From a virus, in the UHGV virus genome UHGV-1732475: a stretch of DNA of 13,357 bases; one strand, given 5' to 3'. This document shows, one piece after another, positions 1 to 9,853 of the stretch. The notes beneath the pieces were generated by a model that saw nothing but the letters and a program-made list of their open reading frames with translations, was not told the DNA's origin and did not search any database. The position numbers were made by a program, and so were the translations under genes. The number at the start of each line of letters is the position of its first letter. Position 1 is the stretch's first letter.

Positions 1-55
1 AACTGTCATGGAGAATTGAAACTTGTTTAAGACTTTGGCAGCCTACTGTTTTTAA

Positions 56-79
56 GTAACCGGCTCATTTAAACCGTCT
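56..79. repeat. Left terminal inverted repeat of the IS66-family element
   Basis: GTAACCGGCTCATTTAAACCGTCT matches the reverse complement of 2731..2754 (GTAAGCGACTCGTCAGAACCGTAT) at 17 of 24 positions, counted by hand. Confidence 0.6.
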
Positions 80-108
80 GGTCTGTTTCCTCCGGCTCTA
101 CAAAAATA

Positions 109-786
109 ATGTCCATCATTTTTAATGGCCACTATCGTATGAAACACCGGACCTGGATCACTGAAGCTTTACGTCTTCACTTTGAAGAACATTTACCCCG
201 GGTTGTGGCCGGGCGTCGCCTGGGTGTACCAAAATCAACAGTTTGTAGTATGTTCGTGCGCTTTCGGAGAGCTGGCCTTTCGTGGCCTTTGCCCGCAGGC
301 ATGTCGGAGCAGGAACTTGATGCCTGCCTTTACGGACAATTTTCCACGGTACCAGTCGTACGTCCTGAAAGCACCGTTATATCCGAAGCCCCCGTGGTAA
401 AAAAACGTCCCCGGCGGCCCAACTTCCCTTATGAGTTTAAAATCGCCTTAGTGGAGCAGTCACTGCAGCCCGGAGCCTGTGTGGCGCAGATCGCCCGGGA
501 AAACGGAATCAACGATAACCTGCTCTTCAACTGGCGCCATCAATACCGGAAAGGTGGCCTGCTGCCTTCCGGAAAAAATATGCCGGCACTGCTTCCCGTG
601 ACGTTAACGCCGGAGCCGGATAATAAAATCCCGGCCCCCGCACAGGAACCAGAGCAGATAAATACACCGTCCGACAGTCTGTGTTGTGAGCTGGTTCTGC
701 CGGCCGGAACTCTCAGGCTTAAAGGTAAACTGACGCCGGCGTTATTACAGACACTTATCCGCGAAATAAAAGGGAGCAGCCACTGA
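109..786 (+). CDS. tnpA: IS66-family orf1 accessory protein with an IS3/IS911-type helix-turn-helix region in its C-terminal half
   Basis: ATG at 109 and TGA at 784..786 overlapping the next start. The segment FPYEFKIALVEQSLQPGACVAQIARENGINDNLLFNWRHQYRKG resembles the IS3/IS911-type transposase HTH. The start is uncertain because no Shine-Dalgarno sequence precedes 109. Confidence 0.65.
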   Translation: MSIIFNGHYRMKHRTWITEALRLHFEEHLPRVVAGRRLGVPKSTVCSMFVRFRRAGLSWPLPAGMSEQELDACLYGQFSTVPVVRPESTVISEAPVVKKRPRRPNFPYEFKIALVEQSLQPGACVAQIARENGINDNLLFNWRHQYRKGGLLPSGKNMPALLPVTLTPEPDNKIPAPAQEPEQINTPSDSLCCELVLPAGTLRLKGKLTPALLQTLIREIKGSSH

Positions 787-1133
787 TGATATCTCTCCCT
801 GCAGGTTCGCGTATCTGGCTGGTTGCAGGTATCACCGATATGCGAAATGGCTTTAACGGCCTGGCATCAAAAGTTCAGAACGTCCTGAAGGATGACCCGT
901 TCTCCGGACACCTGTTCATCTTCCGCGGACGCCGGGGTGACCAGATAAAAGTGTTGTGGGCTGACAGTGACGGACTGTGCCTCTTCACCAAACGCCTGGA
1001 GCGGGGCCGCTTCGTCTGGCCAGTCACCCGTGACGGCAAGGTGCACCTTACTCCGGCTCAGTTATCCATGCTTCTTGAAGGTATCAACTGGAAGCACCCG
1101 AAACGAACGGAACGCGCTGGAATCCGCATATAA
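786..1133 (+). CDS. tnpB: IS66 orf2-like protein (115 aa)
   Basis: Start overlaps the orf1 stop (TGATG). The size and the segment IWLVAGITDMRNGFNGLA...KVLWADSDGLCLFTKRLERGRF are characteristic of IS66 orf2 proteins, from memory. Confidence 0.85.
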   Translation: MISLPAGSRIWLVAGITDMRNGFNGLASKVQNVLKDDPFSGHLFIFRGRRGDQIKVLWADSDGLCLFTKRLERGRFVWPVTRDGKVHLTPAQLSMLLEGINWKHPKRTERAGIRI

Positions 1134-1152
1134 CCCGTTGTAAAGTGAGGAT

Positions 1153-2724
1153 ATGGACACCTCACTTGCTCATGAGAACGCCCGCCTGCGGGCACTGTTG
1201 CAGACGCAACAGGACACCATCCGCCAGATGGCTGAATACAACCGCCTGCTCTCACAGCGGGTGGCGGCTTATGCTTCCGAAATCAACCGGCTGAAGGCGC
1301 TGGTTGCGAAACTGCAACGTATGCAGTTCGGTAAAAGCTCAGAAAAACTTCGTGCAAAAACCGAACGGCAGATACAGGAAGCACAGGAGCGAATCAGCGC
1401 ACTTCAGGAAGAAATGGCGGAAACGCTGGGTGAGCAATATGACCCGGTACTGCCATCCGCCCTGCGCCAGTCTTCAGCCCGTAAACCGTTACCGGCCTCA
1501 CTTCCCCGTGAAACCCGGGTTATCCGGCCGGAAGAGGAATGCTGTCCTGCCTGTGGTGGTGAACTCAGTTCTCTGGGATGTGATGTGTCAGAGCAACTGG
1601 AGCTTATCAGCAGCGCCTTTAAGGTTATCGAAACACAACGTCCGAAACAGGCCTGTTGCCGGTGCGACCATATCGTGCAGGCACCAGTACCTTCAAAACC
1701 CATTGCACGCAGTTATGCCGGAGCGGGGCTTCTGGCCCATGTTGTCACCGGGAAATATGCAGACCATCTGCCGTTATACCGCCAGTCAGAAATATACCGT
1801 CGTCAGGGAGTGGAGCTGAGCCGTGCCACACTGGGGCGCTGGACAGGTGCTGTTGCTGAACTGCTGGAGCCGCTGTATGACGTCCTGCGCCAGTATGTGC
1901 TGATGCCCGGTAAAGTCCATGCTGATGATATCCCCGTCCCGGTCCAGGAGCCGGGCAGCGGTAAAACCCGGACAGCCCGGCTGTGGGTCTACGTCCGTGA
2001 TGACCGTAACGCCGGTTCACAGATGCCCCCGGCGGTCTGGTTCGCGTACAGTCCGGACCGGAAAGGTATCCATCCACAAAATCACCTGGCCGGTTACAGC
2101 GGTGTGCTTCAGGCCGATGCTTACGGTGGTTACCGGGCGTTATACGAATCCGGCAGAATAACGGAAGCCGCGTGTATGGCTCATGCCCGGAGAAAAATCC
2201 ACGATGTGCATGCAAGAGCGCCCACCTACATCACCACGGAAGCCCTGCAGCGTATCGGTGAACTGTATGCCATCGAGGCAGAGGTCCGGGGCTGTTCAGC
2301 AGAACAGCGTCTGGCGGCAAGAAAAGCCAGAGCCGCGCCACTGATGCAGTCACTGTATGACTGGATACAGCAACAGATGAAAACACTGTCGCGTCACTCA
2401 GATACGGCAAAAGCGTTCGCATACCTGCTGAAACAGTGGGATGCACTGAACGTGTACTGCAGTAATGGCTGGGTGGAAATCGACAACAACATCGCAGAGA
2501 ACGCCTTACGGGGAGTGGCCGTAGGCCGGAAAAACTGGATGTTCGCGGGTTCCGACAGCGGTGGTGAACATGCGGCGGTGTTGTACTCGCTGATCGGCAC
2601 ATGCCGTCTGAACAATGTGGAGCCAGAAAAGTGGCTGCGTTACGTCATTGAACATATCCAGGACTGGCCGGCAAACCGGGTACGCGATCTGTTGCCCTGG
2701 AAAGTTGATCTGAGCTCTCAGTAA
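1153..2724 (+). CDS. tnpC: IS66-family DDE transposase (523 aa) with N-terminal coiled coil and CxxC...CxxC zinc ribbon
   Basis: Long ORF with GAGG just upstream of the ATG. Leucine-rich coiled-coil N-terminus, then CPACGG...CCRCDH zinc-binding motif, then a catalytic core typical of IS66 transposases. Confidence 0.9.
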
Positions 2725-2730
2725 ATATCA

Positions 2731-2754
2731 ATACGGTTCTGACGAGTCGCTTAC
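2731..2754. repeat. Right terminal inverted repeat of the IS66-family element
   Basis: The complement of 2754..2731 begins GTAAGCG and pairs with the left repeat. It lies 7 bp after the orf3 stop at 2722..2724. Confidence 0.6.
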
Positions 2755-2959
2755 GGTCATTCTGCATGGATACGAAAAGATCCGCTGGCCGGATGCACCG
2801 GAGTGGGCGAGCCGGGAAACCTGGCTGGAGTGTGTCCCGGACAGTACCGAACCGTCACCCTCACCGGAACCGGTACCCACGCCTGTTAAAAAACAAAAAC
2901 GGAAGAAAACAGTAACTGACGATGTTAACCCCTGGCTGACTTCCGGAGGATGGTTATGA
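2755..2959 (+). pseudogene. 3' fragment of a terminase large-subunit gene (lambda A position), cut at the IS right end
   Basis: The reading frame is open from inside the IS with no start codon and ends at TGA 2957..2959, overlapping the W-like start (ATGA), the same arrangement as the lambda A/W junction. Encodes ...LHGYEKIRWPDAPEWASRETWLECVPDSTEPSPSPEPVPTPVKKQKRKKTVTDDVNPWLTSGGWL. Identity is inferred from synteny only. Confidence 0.45.
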
Positions 2960-3168
2960 ATCAGAATGATATTGAAGCCATGATTCAGCGTTATACGGAA
3001 GCTGAAATGGCGGTGCTGGACGGAAAATCCGTCACCTTTAATGGTCAGCAGATGACCATGGAAAACTTATCTGAGATCCGGCAGGGACGGCAGGAGTGGG
3101 AGCGCCGCCTTGCGGCTCTGATTACACGACGACGGGGGCATCCCGGGTACCGGCTGGCGAGGTTCTGA
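2956..3168 (+). CDS. W: Head-tail connector protein, lambda gpW-like (70 aa)
   Basis: GGAGGA at 2945..2950 precedes the ATG at 2956. Size and pattern (GKSVTFNGQQMTMENLSEI...RRRGHPGY) resemble lambda gpW, and it sits immediately before the portal gene. The track start at 2950 is too close to the SD. Confidence 0.7.
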   Translation: MNQNDIEAMIQRYTEAEMAVLDGKSVTFNGQQMTMENLSEIRQGRQEWERRLAALITRRRGHPGYRLARF

Positions 3169-4676
3169 TGGCAATTCTTGATGATGTGATTGGCGTTTTT
3201 TCACCAGGATGGAAAGCGGCAAGGCTGCGTTCCCGTGCGGTGATCCAGGCTTATGAGGCCGTAAAAACGACGCGGACACACAAAGCCCGACGGGAGAACC
3301 GAACTGCCGACCAGTTAAGCCAGTACGGGGCCGTGTCGTTACGTGAGCAGGCTCGTTACCTTGATAACAACCACGATCTGGTCATTGGTGTATTTGACAA
3401 GCTGGAAGAACGGGTGGTGGGGAAAAACGGGATTATTGTCGAGCCACATCCGGTATTACGCAATGGGGCCATTGCCCGTGATCTGGCAGCGGAGATACGT
3501 ACCCGATGGAGTGAATGGTCTGTCAGTCCGGAGGTCACCGGGCAGTTTACCCGTCCGATGCTGGAACGTCTGATGCTGCGTACCTGGCTGCGCGATGGTG
3601 AGGTGTTTGCCCAGATGGTTTCCGGGCGCATAAACAGCCTGACGCCTTCTGCCGGTGTTCATTTCTGGCTGGAGGCGCTCGAGCCGGACTTTATTCCCAT
3701 GACCAGTGATGAGAGCAACAGGCTGAATCAGGGCGTGTTTGTTGATGACTGGGGGCGTCCCGAAAAATATCTGGTGTATAAAAGCCGTCCCGTATCCGGA
3801 CGGCAGATGGAAACCAAAGAAGTGGATGCAGAGCGAATGCTGCATCTTAAATTTGTTCGCCGTCTGCACCAGATGCGCGGGACGTCTTTGTTGTCCGGTG
3901 TGCTGATCCGCCTCAGTGCCCTGAAAGAGTATGAAGATTCTGAGCTGACTGCAGCAAGGATCGCCGCTGCTCTGGGGATGTACATCCGCAAAGGCGACGG
4001 ACAGAGCTATGAAACGGATGGTAATGACAGCAAGGAGAATGAACGCGAGCTTACCATTCAGCCAGGCATTATTTACGACGATCTGAAACCCGGCGAAGAA
4101 ATCGGAATGGTGAAGTCGGATCGCCCAAATCCTAACCTTGAAACTTTTCGTAATGGTCAGTTGCGTGCCGTGGCTGCGGGCAGTCGTCTGAGTTTTTCCA
4201 GTACAGCGCGCAACTATAACGGCACTTACAGCGCCCAGCGTCAGGAGCTGGTTGAATCTACTGATGGCTACCTGATCCTGCAGGACTGGTTTATTGGTGC
4301 CGTCACCCGCCCGATGTACCGTGCCTGGCTGAAACAGGCTGTGGTATCCGGTGTTATCAGGCTACCCCGCGATCTGGACCGATCTTCACTGTATACCGCG
4401 GTGTATTCCGGACCGGTGATGCCGTGGATTGACCCTGTTAAGGAGGCTGAGGCCTGGAAAATTCAGATTCGTGGTGGAGCGGCGACAGAATCAGACTGGG
4501 TACGTGCAGGTGGTCGTAATCCAGATGATGTCAAACGTCGGCGCAAGGCCGAAATTGATGAAAACCGCAAGCTGGATCTGGTATTTGATACCGATCCGGC
4601 CAGTGATAAAGGAGGCAGCAGTGCCGCAACGAAACGACAGGAGCCGCAGCACACCGACGACCAGTCCGAAGAATAA
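3168..4676 (+). CDS. B: Portal protein, lambda gpB-like (502 aa)
   Basis: ATG at 3168 overlaps the W-like stop (TGATG). Large protein in the position and size range of lambda portal. The track start at 3096 lies inside the W-like gene and is rejected. Confidence 0.85.
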   Translation: MAILDDVIGVFSPGWKAARLRSRAVIQAYEAVKTTRTHKARRENRTADQLSQYGAVSLREQARYLDNNHDLVIGVFDKLEERVVGKNGIIVEPHPVLRNGAIARDLAAEIRTRWSEWSVSPEVTGQFTRPMLERLMLRTWLRDGEVFAQMVSGRINSLTPSAGVHFWLEALEPDFIPMTSDESNRLNQGVFVDDWGRPEKYLVYKSRPVSGRQMETKEVDAERMLHLKFVRRLHQMRGTSLLSGVLIRLSALKEYEDSELTAARIAAALGMYIRKGDGQSYETDGNDSKENERELTIQPGIIYDDLKPGEEIGMVKSDRPNPNLETFRNGQLRAVAAGSRLSFSSTARNYNGTYSAQRQELVESTDGYLILQDWFIGAVTRPMYRAWLKQAVVSGVIRLPRDLDRSSLYTAVYSGPVMPWIDPVKEAEAWKIQIRGGAATESDWVRAGGRNPDDVKRRRKAEIDENRKLDLVFDTDPASDKGGSSAATKRQEPQHTDDQSEE

Positions 4677-4689
4677 TTCTTGGTTCAGG

Positions 4690-6648
4690 ATGCAGGCAGG
4701 TCACCAGAGTGACGCGGATATTTATATTTATGACGAGATTGGTTTCTGGGGTGTTACGGCGAAGCAGTTTATCAGTGATCTGAATGCACTGGGCGATATC
4801 ACCCACATTAATCTCCATATTAATTCACCGGGTGGCGATGTCTTTGAAGGCATCGCCATTTTTAATGCACTGAAAACACATGGTGCGTCCATTACCGTTT
4901 ATGTCGACGGTGTGGCGGCGTCAATGGCGTCGGTCATTGCGATGGTGGGAAACCCGGTCATTATGCCGGAAAACTCCTTCATGATGATTCATAAACCATT
5001 TGGCTTTACGGGCGGTGATGCGGAGGACATGCGCACCTATGCCGACCTGCTCGATAAAGTTGAGGCGGTTCTGTTACCCGCTTATGCACAGAAAACCGGG
5101 AAAACCACCGATGAAATTGCTGCCATGCTGGCGGATGAGACCTGGATGTCCGGTGCCGAATGTCTGGCACAGGGATTTGCTGATCAGGTGACGCCAGCCG
5201 TTAAGGCAATGGCATGTATTCAGTCAAAACGTACAGAGGAATTTAAAAAGATGCCGGAATCCATTCGAAACATGATTACTCCGCCACGCAACAGTGCTCC
5301 ACGCGTACAGGATGATGAACCTGCAGCCTCCCGGACGCCAGTGCAGGCAGCAGCACCCGTGGTGGATGAAAACAGTATCCGTGCGCAGGTACTGGCAGAG
5401 CAAAAAGCGCGTGTAAACGGTATTAATGATCTGTTTGCCATGTTTGGCGGGCGTTATCAGACGCTGCAGGCTCAGTGTCTTGCCGATCCTGAATGTTCGC
5501 TGGAGCAGGCCCGCGAAAAGCTGTTGAACGAGATGGGGCGCGAGTCCACGCCATCCAATAAAAATACCCCGGCTCATATTTATGCCGGTAACGGTAATTT
5601 TGTGGGGGACGGGATCCGCCAGGCGCTGATGGCGCGTGCCGGATTTGAAAAAACCGAACGTGATAATGTCTACAACGGGATGACCCTGCGTGAATATGCC
5701 CGTATGTCACTGACTGAACGTGGTATTGGTGTTTCCAGTTATAACCCGATGCAGATGGTCGGTGCGGCGTTCACACACAGTACGTCTGACTTCGGTAATA
5801 TTCTGCTGGATGTTGCGAACAAAGCCATTCTGCAGGGCTGGGAAGATGCTCCTGAAACCTATGAACAGTGGACGCGGAAAGGTCAGTTGTCTGATTTTAA
5901 AATTGCCCATCGTGTGGGTATGGGGGGCTTCAGTGCTCTGCGTCAGGTGCGTGAAGGGGCGGAATATAAATACGTCACCACCGGAGATAAACAGGCCACT
6001 ATTGCACTGGCGACCTATGGCGAGCTGTTCAGTATCACCCGTCAGGCCATTATCAATGATGATCTGAATATGCTGACCGATGTCCCGATGAAACTGGGCC
6101 GTGCGGCGAAATCCACTATTGCCGATCTGGTTTATGCCATTCTGACGTCTAACCCGAAAATCTCCACAGATAATGTAAGTCTGTTCGATAAAGCGAAACA
6201 TGCAAACGTACTGGAGAGCGCTGCAATGGACGTGGCATCGCTGGATAAAGCCCGCCAGTTGATGCGCGTTCAGAAAGAGGGGGAGCGTCATCTGAATATT
6301 CGTCCTGCGTTCGTACTGGTACCGACGGCGATGGAGTCTGTTGCTAACCAGGTCATTCGCTCCTCAAGTGTCAAGGGGGCTGACATTAACGCCGGTATTA
6401 TTAACCCGGTGAAAGATTTTGCGACCGTTATTGCAGAGCCTCGTCTTGATGATAACAGCCAGACCACCTTCTACCTGGCTGCGTCAAAAGGCTCCGATAC
6501 GATTGAAGTGGCTTATCTCAACGGTGTGGATACGCCATATATTGATCAGATGGAGGGCTTCAGTGTGGATGGCGTGACAACGAAAGTGCGTATTGACGCC
6601 GGTGTCGCGCCAGTTGATCACCGCGGTCTGGTGAAATGTACGGCGTAA
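4690..6648 (+). CDS. Fused capsid gene: ClpP-like (S14) prohead protease, scaffold-like linker and HK97-fold major capsid protein (652 aa)
   Basis: The N-terminal roughly 180 aa carry ClpP-like motifs (GVAASMAS with the candidate catalytic Ser, MMIHKP with the candidate His). A Pro/Ala/Gln-rich linker follows, then a roughly 350 aa capsid-like C-terminus. Start set to the first ATG after the portal stop (4690); it has a weak SD, so the start is uncertain. Confidence 0.85.
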   Translation: MQAGHQSDADIYIYDEIGFWGVTAKQFISDLNALGDITHINLHINSPGGDVFEGIAIFNALKTHGASITVYVDGVAASMASVIAMVGNPVIMPENSFMMIHKPFGFTGGDAEDMRTYADLLDKVEAVLLPAYAQKTGKTTDEIAAMLADETWMSGAECLAQGFADQVTPAVKAMACIQSKRTEEFKKMPESIRNMITPPRNSAPRVQDDEPAASRTPVQAAAPVVDENSIRAQVLAEQKARVNGINDLFAMFGGRYQTLQAQCLADPECSLEQAREKLLNEMGRESTPSNKNTPAHIYAGNGNFVGDGIRQALMARAGFEKTERDNVYNGMTLREYARMSLTERGIGVSSYNPMQMVGAAFTHSTSDFGNILLDVANKAILQGWEDAPETYEQWTRKGQLSDFKIAHRVGMGGFSALRQVREGAEYKYVTTGDKQATIALATYGELFSITRQAIINDDLNMLTDVPMKLGRAAKSTIADLVYAILTSNPKISTDNVSLFDKAKHANVLESAAMDVASLDKARQLMRVQKEGERHLNIRPAFVLVPTAMESVANQVIRSSSVKGADINAGIINPVKDFATVIAEPRLDDNSQTTFYLAASKGSDTIEVAYLNGVDTPYIDQMEGFSVDGVTTKVRIDAGVAPVDHRGLVKCTA

Positions 6649-6671
6649 ACGTCGCAGACAACAACTCTGAT

Positions 6672-6691
6672 GGCCCGTAAGGGCTTTTTTT
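6672..6691 (+). terminator. Candidate intrinsic terminator just after the capsid gene
   Basis: GGCCC-GTAA-GGGC hairpin (4 to 5 bp GC stem with a GNRA-type tetraloop) followed by seven T residues at 6685..6691, 24 nt after the capsid stop. Confidence 0.5.
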
Positions 6692-6702
6692 GTACCTGAA
6701 AT

Positions 6703-6721
6703 CAGCCCCTGAACGGGGCTG
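6703..6721 (+). other. Stable 7-bp stem-loop in the 5' leader of the next head gene
   Basis: CAGCCCC (6703..6709) pairs with GGGGCTG (6715..6721) around a 5-nt loop. No T-tract follows; the GGAG SD and the ATG at 6735 lie directly downstream. Confidence 0.35.
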
Positions 6722-6734
6722 TGCGGAGACAGTT

Positions 6735-7058
6735 ATGGCAAAGAATTTTGTAGAAGAAGGAAAAACGGTGGCGATTGTTGCCAGTGCAGCCATCAGCAGC
6801 GGAGATCTGGTGCAGGTGGGTGATGTTTTTGCGGTGGCGCTGACCGATATTCCACAGGGTGAAACAGGCGACGGCATGACCGAAGGTGTGTTTATGCTGC
6901 CTAAGCTGAAAACGGATGATATGAAAACGGGTAAGAAGGTTTATCTGAAGTCCGGAAAAGTTCAGCTGACTAACAGTGGCTCTGATCCGCTGGTCGGGGT
7001 TGTCTGGGCAGATGCCGGAACCAGTGCAGAAGAAGTGCCGGTAAAACTCAATGTCTGA
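6735..7058 (+). CDS. Small head protein (107 aa), candidate decoration or cement protein
   Basis: GGAG SD 7 nt upstream of the ATG at 6735. Sits directly after the major capsid gene, is about 11 kDa, and is Gly/Val-rich. Function inferred from position and size only. Confidence 0.5.
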   Translation: MAKNFVEEGKTVAIVASAAISSGDLVQVGDVFAVALTDIPQGETGDGMTEGVFMLPKLKTDDMKTGKKVYLKSGKVQLTNSGSDPLVGVVWADAGTSAEEVPVKLNV

Positions 7059-7326
7059 TCCCTTTTCCCGGCTGGCAGCGCGTATGGATGCGATCACGGT
7101 CAGAAAGATGGGAAAGACAGCCTCGGTTAATGATGTCGATATGACTGTGATCCCGGGAGAAACACTGGCAGAGCTGAATGCTCTGTCCGGACCTGCGGTC
7201 TCTCTGGTGGTGTTTTCTTCGGGATACCGCCCACGGCGCGGGGATCGCGTTGTTTATGACGGACAACAATGGACGGTCACACGGCATGAACGCTTTAACG
7301 GTAAGCCAATGATCTTTATTGAGTAA
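7051..7326 (+). CDS. Head-tail joining protein, lambda gpFII-like (91 aa)
   Basis: Overlaps the preceding gene by 8 nt. The N-terminus FSRLAARMDAITVRKMGKTA and a later RRGD motif resemble lambda FII (FDAAIARADETIRGYMGTSA ... RRGD), from memory. Confidence 0.6.
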   Translation: MSDPFSRLAARMDAITVRKMGKTASVNDVDMTVIPGETLAELNALSGPAVSLVVFSSGYRPRRGDRVVYDGQQWTVTRHERFNGKPMIFIE

Positions 7327-9137: not shown

Positions 9138-9527
9138 ATGATGTTTCTGAAACAGGACACGTTTAATTATGAAAAACAGTCCGTGGTGCTCAGTGAGCTG
9201 TCCGGGCTGCAGAGAATTGAATATCTGACGTTTGTTCAGCAGCGAACGGCAAAGTTTGATGCCGGGGAGGGAGAACTGCCGGAGGCTGAACGACAGATTG
9301 CTTTTCTGCGGATGGGGATGGATATCAATGCCTGGCTGGTTTCCCGCTCACTGTGGAATGCGGAACAGTCTCAGGATGTTGAGACGCTTTACGCATCCGT
9401 TATTACAACATGGTCGTATGATGCCCTGGGAGCGGGGGCGGAGATGGTTCTGTCGCTGAGCGGTATGGGAGCCATTGAGAATGCCGGGGATTTGGAGCAT
9501 GAGGTGCTGACGCCGGAAAAGTCCTGA
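9138..9527 (+). CDS. G: Tail assembly chaperone, lambda gpG-like (about 129 aa)
   Basis: Tandem ATG codons at 9138 and 9141 after a GGAG SD; either could be the start. The N-terminus MFLKQDTF...VLSELSGLQRIEYL resembles lambda G (MFLKTESF...TLSELSALQRIEHL). Stop TGA at 9525..9527. Confidence 0.8.
   Translation: MMFLKQDTFNYEKQSVVLSELSGLQRIEYLTFVQQRTAKFDAGEGELPEAERQIAFLRMGMDINAWLVSRSLWNAEQSQDVETLYASVITTWSYDALGAGAEMVLSLSGMGAIENAGDLEHEVLTPEKS
9515..9521 (+). other. Putative -1 programmed frameshift slippery heptamer G_GAA_AAG for the G-T fusion
   Basis: Zero-frame codons are CCG GAA AAG TCC TGA. The -1 frame is open from 9503 through 9853, so the shift must occur within 9503..9524. GGAAAAG is the only slippery-looking heptamer there and differs by one base from lambda's GGGAAAG. 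Confidence 0.45.
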
Positions 9528-9853
9528 CGCGGGAAATGCAGTTTGTCATGCGGCTTGCCCGGGAGTTCCGGCGGGCAGACTGGCGGCGGATGCTGTCGGA
9601 AATGTCGGCCACTGAGCTTGGTGAGTGGGGCGATTATTTCCGGATGCAGAGCTTCAGTGATGTGTGGATGGATGCGCAGTTTGCCTCGCTGAAGGCATTG
9701 ATCGTGAGAATGGTGTCCGGCAGCAGTGATGCTGCGGTGGCTGATTTCAGCCTTTTACCGGAAGAGAACGGGATACCGGAGCGAACGGACGAAGAACTGA
9801 TGCATCTTGGGGAAGGTATTTCCGGAGGTGTGCGTTATGGACCAGATAGCTAA
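9521..9853 (+). CDS. T: T-like C-terminal extension reached by -1 frameshift from G, giving a G-T fusion of about 237 aa
   Basis: The ORF track shows 9536..9853 in the -1 frame relative to G, and that frame is open back to 9503. The position between G and the tape measure gene, with a 17-nt overlap onto the tape measure start, matches the conserved G/GT arrangement in long-tailed phages. Confidence 0.7.
   Translation, partial: VLTREMQFVMRLAREFRRADWRRMLSEMSATELGEWGDYFRMQSFSDVWMDAQFASLKALIVRMVSGSSDAAVADFSLLPEENGIPERTDEELMHLGEGISGGVRYGPDS

What the first reader, a model, noticed from the sequence alone, without database searches (positions are those of the whole stretch)
4690..6648. Single gene fusing prohead protease, scaffold and major capsid protein
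One 652-aa ORF carries a ClpP-type protease domain at the N-terminus (Ser in GVAASMAS, His in MMIHKP), a low-complexity linker, and a capsid-like C-terminus. In lambda these functions are split across C, Nu3 and E. A fused tripartite capsid gene has been described for Salmonella phage Gifsy-2, so this is a member of a known but unusual assembly strategy in which the protease and scaffold are removed by self-cleavage. The cleavage sites and the true start codon (weak SD at 4690) are not determinable from sequence alone.
Basis: partly seen in the sequence, partly recalled or inferred. Interest (0 to 1): 0.5.

Follow-up and report, generated by a model that had tools for sequence, protein, structure and literature searches.

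The report
Fused protease–scaffold–capsid phage gene

Summary
One uninterrupted + strand ORF ending at 6648 encodes an N-terminal ClpP-fold serine protease, a variable disordered linker, a helical scaffold-like module and a C-terminal HK97-fold (Mu-GpT-type) capsid domain. It passes NCBI's curated model for [quoted passage not shown] (NF045540, 985 bits vs cutoff 475). It is 70% identical and collinear over 668 residues with the Gifsy-2 tripartite capsid protein, in the same gene order. It differs at 4 of 675 residues from the protein of phage mEp460. The 4.4-kb portal-to-decoration segment containing it (2700-7100) occurs at >=80% coverage in about 2,000 of 5,426 complete E. coli genomes, so the gene is common, not unusual. 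Correction: the start is very probably GTG 4621 (AAGGAGG, 5-nt spacer; 675 aa), not ATG 4690. Trp21, upstream of that ATG, is conserved even in stand-alone phage proteases. The SD-plus-start is conserved in diverged homologs, and Gifsy-2 has Ile at the "Met" position. The triad is Ser101-His124-Glu173. Cleavage sites remain unmapped; a mature capsid protein of roughly residues 375-675 is inferred only. The prophage is truncated in its terminase gene by an IS66-family element with a plasmid-like left flank. Already known; low interest.

The parts
4609..4615 (+). Shine-Dalgarno AAGGAGG, 5 nt upstream of GTG 4621
   Evidence: Read directly from the sequence. GGAGG is conserved at the aligned position in CP-1639 and Pseudomonas phage MD8.
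4621..6648 (+). Complete protease-scaffold-capsid fusion gene (675 codons plus stop); overlaps the portal gene's 3' end by 56 nt
   Evidence: ORF map. RefSeq uses the 675-aa form. NF045540 scores 985 bits vs cutoff 475. 70% identity to the Gifsy-2 protein. 4 of 675 differences from mEp460.
4690..4692 (+).
   Evidence: It aligns with I/M/F/L in homologs and with Ile in Gifsy-2. It lies inside predicted beta-strand 23-26.
4681..5193 (+). ClpP-fold (S14-like) prohead protease domain, residues 21-191
4921..4923 (+). Catalytic Ser101 codon (in GVAASMAS)
   Evidence: Aligned to the ClpP active-site Ser. Invariant in 59 of 59 sequences.
4990..4992 (+). Catalytic His124 codon (in MMIHKP)
   Evidence: Aligned to the ClpP His. 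Invariant in 59 of 59 sequences.
5137..5139 (+). Glu173 codon, at the position of the ClpP triad Asp
   Evidence: The alignment to 1y7o puts E under the ClpP Asp. The column is E in 49/59 and D in 6/59.
5281..5367 (+). Disordered, hypervariable Pro/Ala/Gln-rich linker, residues 221-249
   Evidence: pLDDT below 50 for 221-245. Highest column entropy and most indels in the family. 24% identity to Gifsy-2.
5368..5742 (+). Central helical module, residues 250-374, presumed internal scaffold (delta-domain analogue), with a low-confidence hinge at 311-326
   Evidence: Helices 250-273, 280-288, 294-307, 327-339 and 356-365. No Pfam family. The scaffold role is inferred from Gifsy-2 and HK97.
5743..6645 (+). 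Major capsid protein domain (HK97 fold, Mu-GpT-like), residues 375-675, about 32.7 kDa
6672..6692 (+). Terminator-like hairpin GGCCC-GTAA-GGGCT plus T7 run just after the gene
   Evidence: Scan. The equivalent site is annotated as a rho-independent terminator in mEp460.
6735..7058 (+). Head decoration/cement protein gene (DUF2190, Phage_cement_2), partner of the mature capsid
   Evidence: Pfam PF09956 E 1.4e-20 and PHROG 122 'head decoration'. Same position as STM1034 in Gifsy-2.
3168..4676 (+). Lambda-family portal gene immediately upstream
   Evidence: Pfam Phage_portal_2 E 5.6e-82. Coordinates transferred from the mEp460 annotation.
56..2754 (+). IS66-family element (tnpA, tnpB, ISCro1-like transposase) that truncates the terminase large-subunit gene; only its last ~65 codons remain at 2755-2958
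   Evidence: Pfam and PHROG hits. Boundaries by BLAST to mEp460 and NCCP 13717 and by the GTAA.../...CGCTTAC ends. The left flank 1-55 is plasmid-type.

Best explanation
The gene (most likely 4621..6648, 675 aa, 73.5 kDa) is the Gifsy-2-type 'tripartite capsid gene' of a lambdoid E. coli prophage of the mEp460/cdtI type. It is translated as one polyprotein from a GTG with a strong ribosome-binding site inside the end of the portal gene. The C-terminal HK97-fold domain (about residues 375-675) builds the shell. The central helical module (about 250-374) is presumed to act as a covalently attached internal scaffold, like the HK97 delta domain. The N-terminal ClpP-fold domain (21-191; Ser101, His124, Glu173) is thereby carried into the procapsid at one copy per subunit. 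After assembly the protease is thought to cut away and degrade the protease, linker and scaffold parts. That would leave a capsid protein of about 33 kDa, which expands on DNA packaging and is then stabilised by the decoration protein encoded just downstream (6735-7058). Shown here: the single ORF, the two folds, the conserved catalytic residues, family membership, homology and synteny with Gifsy-2, and the upstream start. Inferred from Gifsy-2, HK97 and lambda precedent: the scaffold role, self-cleavage, the approximate mature N-terminus, T=7 geometry and decoration binding. In this window the prophage has lost most of its terminase gene at an IS junction. The gene is therefore intact but probably sits in a packaging-defective element.
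Against: No experimental data exist for this exact protein. The primary Gifsy-2 paper (PMID 20427067) could not be read, so the cleavage sites and what procapsids contain are recalled or inferred. The central module has no family annotation, and its scaffold function is by analogy only. Several GenBank phage records annotate the shorter ATG start and one annotates a longer 706-aa form, so the start is not universally agreed. The terminase truncation means that the pathway may never run to completion from this locus.
Confidence: 0.88

Rival explanations
1. The gene starts at ATG 4690, as the first reader and the mEp460/cdtI GenBank records assume, giving a 652-aa protein that does not overlap the portal gene.
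For: ATG is the commonest start codon. It lies 13 nt after the portal stop. It is annotated this way in NC_019716 and other phage records. The NCBIfam profile begins at about residue 9 of the 652-aa form.
Against: Only 'cagg' abuts the ATG, with no spacer. Trp21, three codons upstream, is W in 48 of 59 fusion proteins and is conserved in stand-alone proteases of Mycobacterium, Gordonia and Pseudomonas phages. Met24 aligns with Ile in most homologs, including Gifsy-2. AAGGAGG-N5-GTG at 4609-4623 is conserved in CP-1639 and MD8. The model places residues 23-26 in a beta-strand of the protease fold.
Confidence: 0.1
2. The single ORF is an artefact: two or three separate genes joined by a sequencing or assembly frameshift.
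For: Error-derived chimeras of this very gene exist in databases, for example the 1159-aa portal-protease-capsid proteins.
Against: The same uninterrupted ORF is found in RefSeq complete genomes, in 16 independently sequenced phage isolates, in Gifsy-2 and in more than 100 diverged clusters at 35-60% identity. A curated NCBIfam model exists for the fusion.
Confidence: 0.01
3. Besides the full-length polyprotein, a nested product (scaffold-capsid or capsid alone) is made from an internal start, as with lambda C/Nu3 or Mu I/Z, so that only a minority of subunits carry a protease.
For: Nested in-frame genes are common in phage head modules (established knowledge). Proteins with only the helical module plus capsid domain exist in databases (P0167, P0230). 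One protease per subunit would fill much of the procapsid interior.
Against: No internal in-frame start with a strong SD is shared between the window gene and Gifsy-2. The only strong site in the window is at codon 649. The context of P0230 could not be recovered because its contig is 1.5 kb, so it may be a fragment or a genuinely split variant rather than a nested product.
Confidence: 0.1
4. At this locus the gene is a stranded remnant. The prophage cannot package DNA because its terminase gene is truncated, so the fusion protein has no productive role here, apart from possible complementation or recombination with other lambdoid phages.
For: An IS66-family element at 56-2754 leaves only the last ~65 codons of the terminase large subunit gene. 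The left flank is IncF-plasmid-type sequence without a target-site duplication.
Against: The capsid gene is intact and has 4 differences from a viable phage. The missing part of the prophage could lie elsewhere in the genome after an IS-mediated inversion, or the junction could be an assembly chimera. Only 55 nt of left flank are available.
Confidence: 0.5

Closest known systems
Salmonella phage Gifsy-2 tripartite capsid gene (STM1033 region; YP_001700678, 696 aa; Effantin et al. 2010, Virology 402:355, PMID 20427067)
   Same: Same three-module order: ClpP-like protease, central domain, capsid. 70% identity over 668 collinear residues, with the same Ser/His/Glu positions. Same neighbours: terS, terL, small protein, portal, fusion gene, decoration protein, then Z-U-V-G-T-H tail genes.
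   Different: The linker is unrelated in sequence (24% identity) and differs in length. The N-terminal 20 residues differ. The Gifsy-2 record uses an ATG start.
E. coli phages mEp460, cdtI, phi458, Ayreon, Tritos, HannyBb (NCBIfam NF045540 'scaf_prot_MCP1')
   Same: 99.0-99.5% nucleotide identity over the whole gene and 4 of 675 amino-acid differences from mEp460. Effectively the same gene.
   Different: Those are complete, viable phages. Here the module sits beside an IS-truncated terminase. Their records annotate the product variously as protease, Nu3, scaffold or major head protein, and with different starts.
HK97 gp4 / gp5 (separate protease; delta-domain scaffold fused to the capsid protein)
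   Same: A scaffold function covalently attached to the N-terminus of an HK97-fold capsid protein and removed by a phage protease (established knowledge). The C-terminal fold is shared.
   Different: The HK97 protease is a separate gene of a different (herpesvirus-like) fold, and HK97 stabilises its shell by crosslinks rather than a decoration protein (established knowledge). Here the protease has a ClpP fold and is in the same polypeptide, and a cement/decoration gene follows.
Lambda C / Nu3 / E / D head genes
   Same: Portal-protease-scaffold-decoration-capsid logic and a decoration protein stabilising a T=7 shell. The tail genes in this window are lambda-type Z, U, G, T, H.
   Different: Lambda C is an S49 (SppA-like) protease with Nu3 nested in it, and E is a separate gene (established knowledge). 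Here the protease is S14-like: the SppA model scores 21.8 bits vs cutoff 155. The decoration gene follows rather than precedes the capsid gene.
Cellular ClpP (ATP-dependent Clp protease proteolytic subunit)
   Different: It fails every ClpP equivalog cutoff, for example TIGR00493 at 60 bits vs 308.6. It has Glu at the Asp position. It is tethered to a capsid subunit, so it is not expected to work as a free heptameric ring with an ATPase partner (inference).
Mu-GpT-type major capsid proteins with solved structures (PDB 8rkc/8rkx, 9jod)
   Same: The C-terminal domain shares detectable sequence homology (profile E about 3e-7) and the Pfam Mu-like_gpT signal.
   Different: Those are stand-alone capsid proteins of about 300 aa without fused protease or scaffold. 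The similarity is confined to parts of the domain.

Membership tests
ClpP-like prohead protease/major capsid protein fusion (NCBIfam NF045540; Gifsy-2-type tripartite capsid gene) | Whole-protein score above the curated cutoff of the family model | tested here: met
   985.3 bits vs cutoff 475, covering residues 9-651 of the 652-aa form and 2-651 of 652 profile positions.
ClpP-like prohead protease/major capsid protein fusion (NCBIfam NF045540; Gifsy-2-type tripartite capsid gene) | One uninterrupted ORF with an N-terminal ClpP-like domain and a C-terminal capsid domain | tested here: met
ClpP-like prohead protease/major capsid protein fusion (NCBIfam NF045540; Gifsy-2-type tripartite capsid gene) | Catalytic Ser and His of the protease retained | tested here: met
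   Ser101 and His124 align to the ClpP active site and are invariant in 59 family members. The third residue is Glu173.
ClpP-like prohead protease/major capsid protein fusion (NCBIfam NF045540; Gifsy-2-type tripartite capsid gene) | Full-length collinear homology to the Gifsy-2 protein, and the same head-gene neighbourhood | tested here: met
   70% identity over 668 residues. Portal upstream and DUF2190 decoration gene downstream, as in Gifsy-2.
ClpP-like prohead protease/major capsid protein fusion (NCBIfam NF045540; Gifsy-2-type tripartite capsid gene) | Proteolytic removal of the protease and central domains, leaving only the C-terminal capsid protein in virions | not testable with these tools
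   Needs mass spectrometry or N-terminal sequencing of particles. The primary Gifsy-2 paper is not held.
ClpP-like prohead protease/major capsid protein fusion (NCBIfam NF045540; Gifsy-2-type tripartite capsid gene) | T=7 shell with trimeric decoration protein | not testable with these tools
   Reported for Gifsy-2 (PMC8814770, PMC8538268). Here only the decoration gene is seen.
Bona fide ClpP (TIGR00493 and related equivalogs) | Score above the equivalog cutoff | tested here: not met
   TIGR00493 scores 60 bits vs 308.6 and NF011091 scores 60.2 vs 361. It has the ClpP fold but is not a ClpP orthologue.
Lambda-type head protease (S49 / SppA-like, gpC) | SppA/S49 domain signature | tested here: not met
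HK97-fold major capsid proteins | HK97-like fold of the C-terminal domain | tested here: met
prohead protease/major capsid fusion, second type (NCBIfam NF045541 'scaf_prot_MCP2') | Score above the curated cutoff | tested here: not met
   400 bits vs cutoff 525, and the match covers only residues 197-649. The scaffold-capsid body is shared but the protease part is not.

The most novel reading that the evidence does not exclude
Every capsid subunit carries its own ClpP-fold protease on a flexible tether, with Glu rather than Asp at the third triad position. The protease domains therefore cannot adopt the heptameric ring that activates cellular ClpP. They may instead be switched on by clustering under 6-fold and 5-fold capsomers inside the procapsid. 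Such assembly-templated activation has not been described structurally for this family. Nothing in my data tests oligomeric state.
Probability: 0.3. Interest if true: 0.4.

Novelty: already known. Interest (0 to 1): 0.12.

Why it matters
It matters little as a discovery. The architecture was described for Gifsy-2 in 2010, NCBI has a curated family model for it, and it is carried by a large share of sequenced E. coli. There are two practical points. First, public phage records name this one gene inconsistently: protease, Nu3, scaffold, major head protein, even terminase. They also give it three different lengths (652, 675 and 706 aa). This can make automated capsid-gene detection miss it, as happened for Gifsy-2 in PMC8814770. 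Second, the comparative evidence here gives a defensible start codon (GTG 4621) and module boundaries that could guide experiments on how a tethered ClpP-fold protease is activated inside a procapsid.

Tried and rejected
(1) Programmed frameshift joining the portal gene to the fusion gene. Database proteins of 1159, 1135 and 1080 aa combine portal, ClpP and capsid domains. Their junctions lie at four different positions, and some also have C-terminal frameshifts. They are therefore independent indels or sequencing errors. Rejected.

(2) Nested internal start for a scaffold-capsid product. No strong SD-plus-start is shared between the window and Gifsy-2. Not supported.

(3) Natural split variants (P0167, P0230: helical module plus capsid only) as an independent marker of the domain boundary. 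The only contig for P0230 is 1.5 kb and gives no context. Inconclusive.

(4) Reading the primary Gifsy-2 paper for mapped cleavage sites. It is not held, and the secondary papers give only general statements. Further literature searches found no processing data for this family.

(5) Single-sequence PDB search for the capsid half found only ClpP. A four-sequence profile was needed to reach the Mu-GpT-type capsids.

(6) Antisense ORFs inside the gene (5710-6291 and 5227-5577, minus strand) have no Pfam or PHROG match. Treated as chance ORFs.

(7) Checking triad geometry in the model was not possible, because model coordinates are not exposed.

Full report
OBSERVATION. The stated interval 4690..6648 on the + strand is open and translates to 652 residues plus a stop. 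In the alignment to solved ClpP structures, the Ser of GVAASMAS and the His of MMIHKP fall on the ClpP catalytic Ser and His. Pfam gives CLP_protease (E 4.6e-36, residues 23-168) and Phage_capsid_4 (E 2.4e-55, residues 352-649), plus a weaker Mu-like_gpT signal. PHROG 133 matches end to end.

IDENTITY. NCBIfam holds a curated model for exactly this architecture: NF045540, 'ClpP-like prohead protease/major capsid protein fusion protein'. The protein scores 985 bits against a cutoff of 475. The separate model for the protease domain alone (NF045542, 'head maturation protease, ClpP-related') scores 217 against 120. The gene is 99.0-99.5% identical in DNA to the corresponding gene of 16 phage records, including mEp460, cdtI, phi458, Ayreon, Tritos and HannyBb. 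It is about 77% identical to that of a group of Stx-converting phages and CP-1639. In RefSeq complete E. coli genomes, the 4.4-kb portal-to-decoration segment containing the gene (window 2700-7100) is found at >=80% coverage in 2,012 of 5,426 genomes, and the gene is annotated under the NF045540 name. At the protein level it differs from mEp460 at 4 of 675 positions. An exhaustive HMMER scan of 1.84 billion cluster representatives found well over 100 distinct 50%-identity clusters that match over the full length at 35-60% identity. The fused architecture is therefore widespread well beyond the enterobacteria.

COMPARISON WITH GIFSY-2. Phage Gifsy-2 (NC_010393) encodes a 696-aa 'Clp protease involved in capsid processing'. 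It aligns with the window protein at 70% identity over 668 collinear residues. By module, identity is 87% for the capsid domain, 63% for the protease, 48% for the first helical module and 24% for the linker. Gene order is the same in both: terminase small and large subunits, a small DUF6148 protein, portal, fusion gene, DUF2190 decoration protein, an STM1035-like protein, then lambda-type Z, U, V, G, T and H. Secondary literature states that the Gifsy-2 prohead protease and coat genes are fused (PMC12315714). It also states that the capsid is T=7 (PMC8814770) and carries a trimeric decoration protein like lambda gpD (PMC8538268). The primary paper (Effantin et al. 2010, PMID 20427067) is not held. 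What I say about its '~200-residue central domain' comes from memory of its abstract.

START CODON. The reading frame is open back to 4429. A GTG at 4621 is preceded by AAGGAGG (4609-4615) with a 5-nt spacer, whereas ATG 4690 has only 'cagg' directly abutting it. Four lines of evidence favour 4621.
- Trp21 of the long form (codon 4681-4683, upstream of the ATG) is W in 48 of 59 diverged fusion proteins. It is also conserved in stand-alone prohead proteases of Mycobacterium phage GreaseLightnin and Gordonia phage RayTheFireFly and in the MD8 fusion, all within annotated coding sequence.
- The 'start' Met24 aligns with Ile in most homologs, including Gifsy-2, which therefore cannot start there.
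- The GGAGG-spacer-start arrangement sits at the same aligned position in CP-1639 (GTG) and in Pseudomonas phage MD8 (ATG).
- In the AlphaFold model, residues 23-26 form a beta-strand of the protease fold.
RefSeq already uses the 675-aa form. The mEp460 and cdtI records use 652 aa, and CP-1639 uses 706 aa. The gene thus overlaps the last 56 nt of the portal gene.

ANATOMY (675-aa numbering). An AlphaFold2 model built on 59 diverse homologs has mean pLDDT 84.3.
- Residues 1-18 are disordered.
- Ser101 and His124 are invariant. The position of the ClpP Asp is Glu173 (E in 49/59, D in 6/59).
- Residues 192-220 are weakly predicted helices.
- Residues 221-245 are disordered. They coincide with the most variable, indel-rich part of the family alignment.
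- Residues 250-310 form three confident helices, residues 311-326 a low-confidence hinge, and residues 327-374 two further helices. No family model covers 192-374.
- Masses: full length 73.5 kDa; residues 375-675 32.7 kDa.
- A terminator-like hairpin plus T-run follows at 6672-6692, as annotated in mEp460. The decoration gene follows at 6735-7058.

MECHANISM. The best-supported reading is the Gifsy-2 pathway. One polyprotein is made. The capsid domain assembles on the portal, with the helical module acting as an attached scaffold and the protease domain tethered inside. Assembly is followed by proteolytic removal of everything N-terminal to the capsid domain, then by packaging-driven expansion and binding of the decoration protein. 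Architecture, folds, catalytic residues, homology and synteny are shown here. The scaffold role, the self-cleavage and the mature N-terminus (about residue 375, taken from the Pfam boundary and from the recalled Gifsy-2 description) are inferred.

ALTERNATIVES EXAMINED. A sequencing artefact is excluded by the recurrence of the ORF. A nested internal start is not supported. The database proteins that fuse portal to this ORF have different junctions and are errors, not a programmed frameshift. Antisense ORFs have no family support.

CONTEXT. An IS66-family element (tnpA 109-786, tnpB 786-1133, ISCro1-like transposase 1153-2724) occupies about 56-2754. To its right, only the last ~65 codons of the terminase large-subunit gene remain (2755-2958), collinear with mEp460. 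To its left, bases 1-55 are not terminase, and there is no 8-bp target duplication. They match about 500 E. coli plasmids at 100%, in an IncFII backbone region. In strain NCCP 13717 the same IS sits 137 bp further along the terminase gene with a duplication, which indicates an independent insertion. The window therefore records either an IS-mediated rearrangement or an assembly chimera. Either way, the prophage as seen here lacks most of its terminase.

VERDICT. The feature is a typical member of a known, curated and very common family. The useful corrections are the start codon (4621 rather than 4690), the Ser-His-Glu triad and the module boundaries. In addition, the strategy is common rather than unusual in E. 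coli prophages. Novelty: already known. Interest: low.

Noticed in passing
window 1-2958: An IS66-family element (about 56-2754) has a terminase large-subunit remnant on its right (2755-2958). On its left are 55 nt that match about 500 E. coli IncF-type plasmids at 100%, with no target-site duplication. This indicates an IS-mediated rearrangement or cointegrate, or an assembly chimera. The prophage lacks most of its terminase here.
   Followed up: partly
L001 (NZ_CP115984.1) 4001-6912 versus window 54-2891: In strain NCCP 13717 the same IS sits 137 bp further downstream in the same terminase gene, with a ~9-bp overlap consistent with a target duplication. The 3' end of this terminase gene has therefore been hit by this IS at least twice independently.
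   Followed up: partly
database proteins P0005-P0013, P0016, P0017, P0043, P0070 (relative to window 4429-4676): Singleton proteins of 1159, 1135 and 1080 aa fuse the portal to the protease-capsid ORF. The junctions differ between them, so they are independent indels or sequencing errors. They arise easily because the fusion gene's frame stays open for about 250 nt inside the portal gene. Other chimeras with tail protein L, terminase or DUF1983 domains also occur (P0019, P0066, P0079).
   Followed up: yes
window 4621-6648 and public records H1-H16, H134-H135: The same gene is annotated in GenBank phage records as protease, head-tail preconnector Nu3, protease C, scaffold, major head protein, major capsid protein and even 'terminase protein', with lengths of 652, 675 or 706 aa. 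One published capsid survey failed to find a major capsid protein for Gifsy-2 (PMC8814770).
   Followed up: partly
window 9510-9527: The tail chaperone G gene ends at TGA 9525-9527, with T starting at 9536. The canonical lambda slippery heptamer GGGAAAG is absent there (its only copies are at 7110 and 12531). The sequence is CCGGAAAAG, so the G-T frameshift site, if used, is a variant.
   Followed up: no
window 7051-7326: The small ORF after the decoration gene hits Pfam 'Gifsy-2' (PF13856, described as an ATP-binding sugar transporter) and is named 'DNA breaking-rejoining protein' by RefSeq. PHROG calls it a minor tail protein, and it sits where a head-tail connector is expected. The database names look misleading.
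   Followed up: no
P0167 (443 aa), P0230 (468 aa; L010): Relatives consisting only of the helical module plus capsid domain begin where the window protein's disordered linker ends. They may be natural split versions with a separate protease gene. The only contig available was too short to tell.
   Followed up: partly
window 6690-6734: The mechanical ORF for the decoration protein starts at TTG 6690, inside the terminator's T-run. The real start is almost certainly ATG 6735, preceded by GGAG, as annotated in mEp460 and RefSeq.
   Followed up: partly
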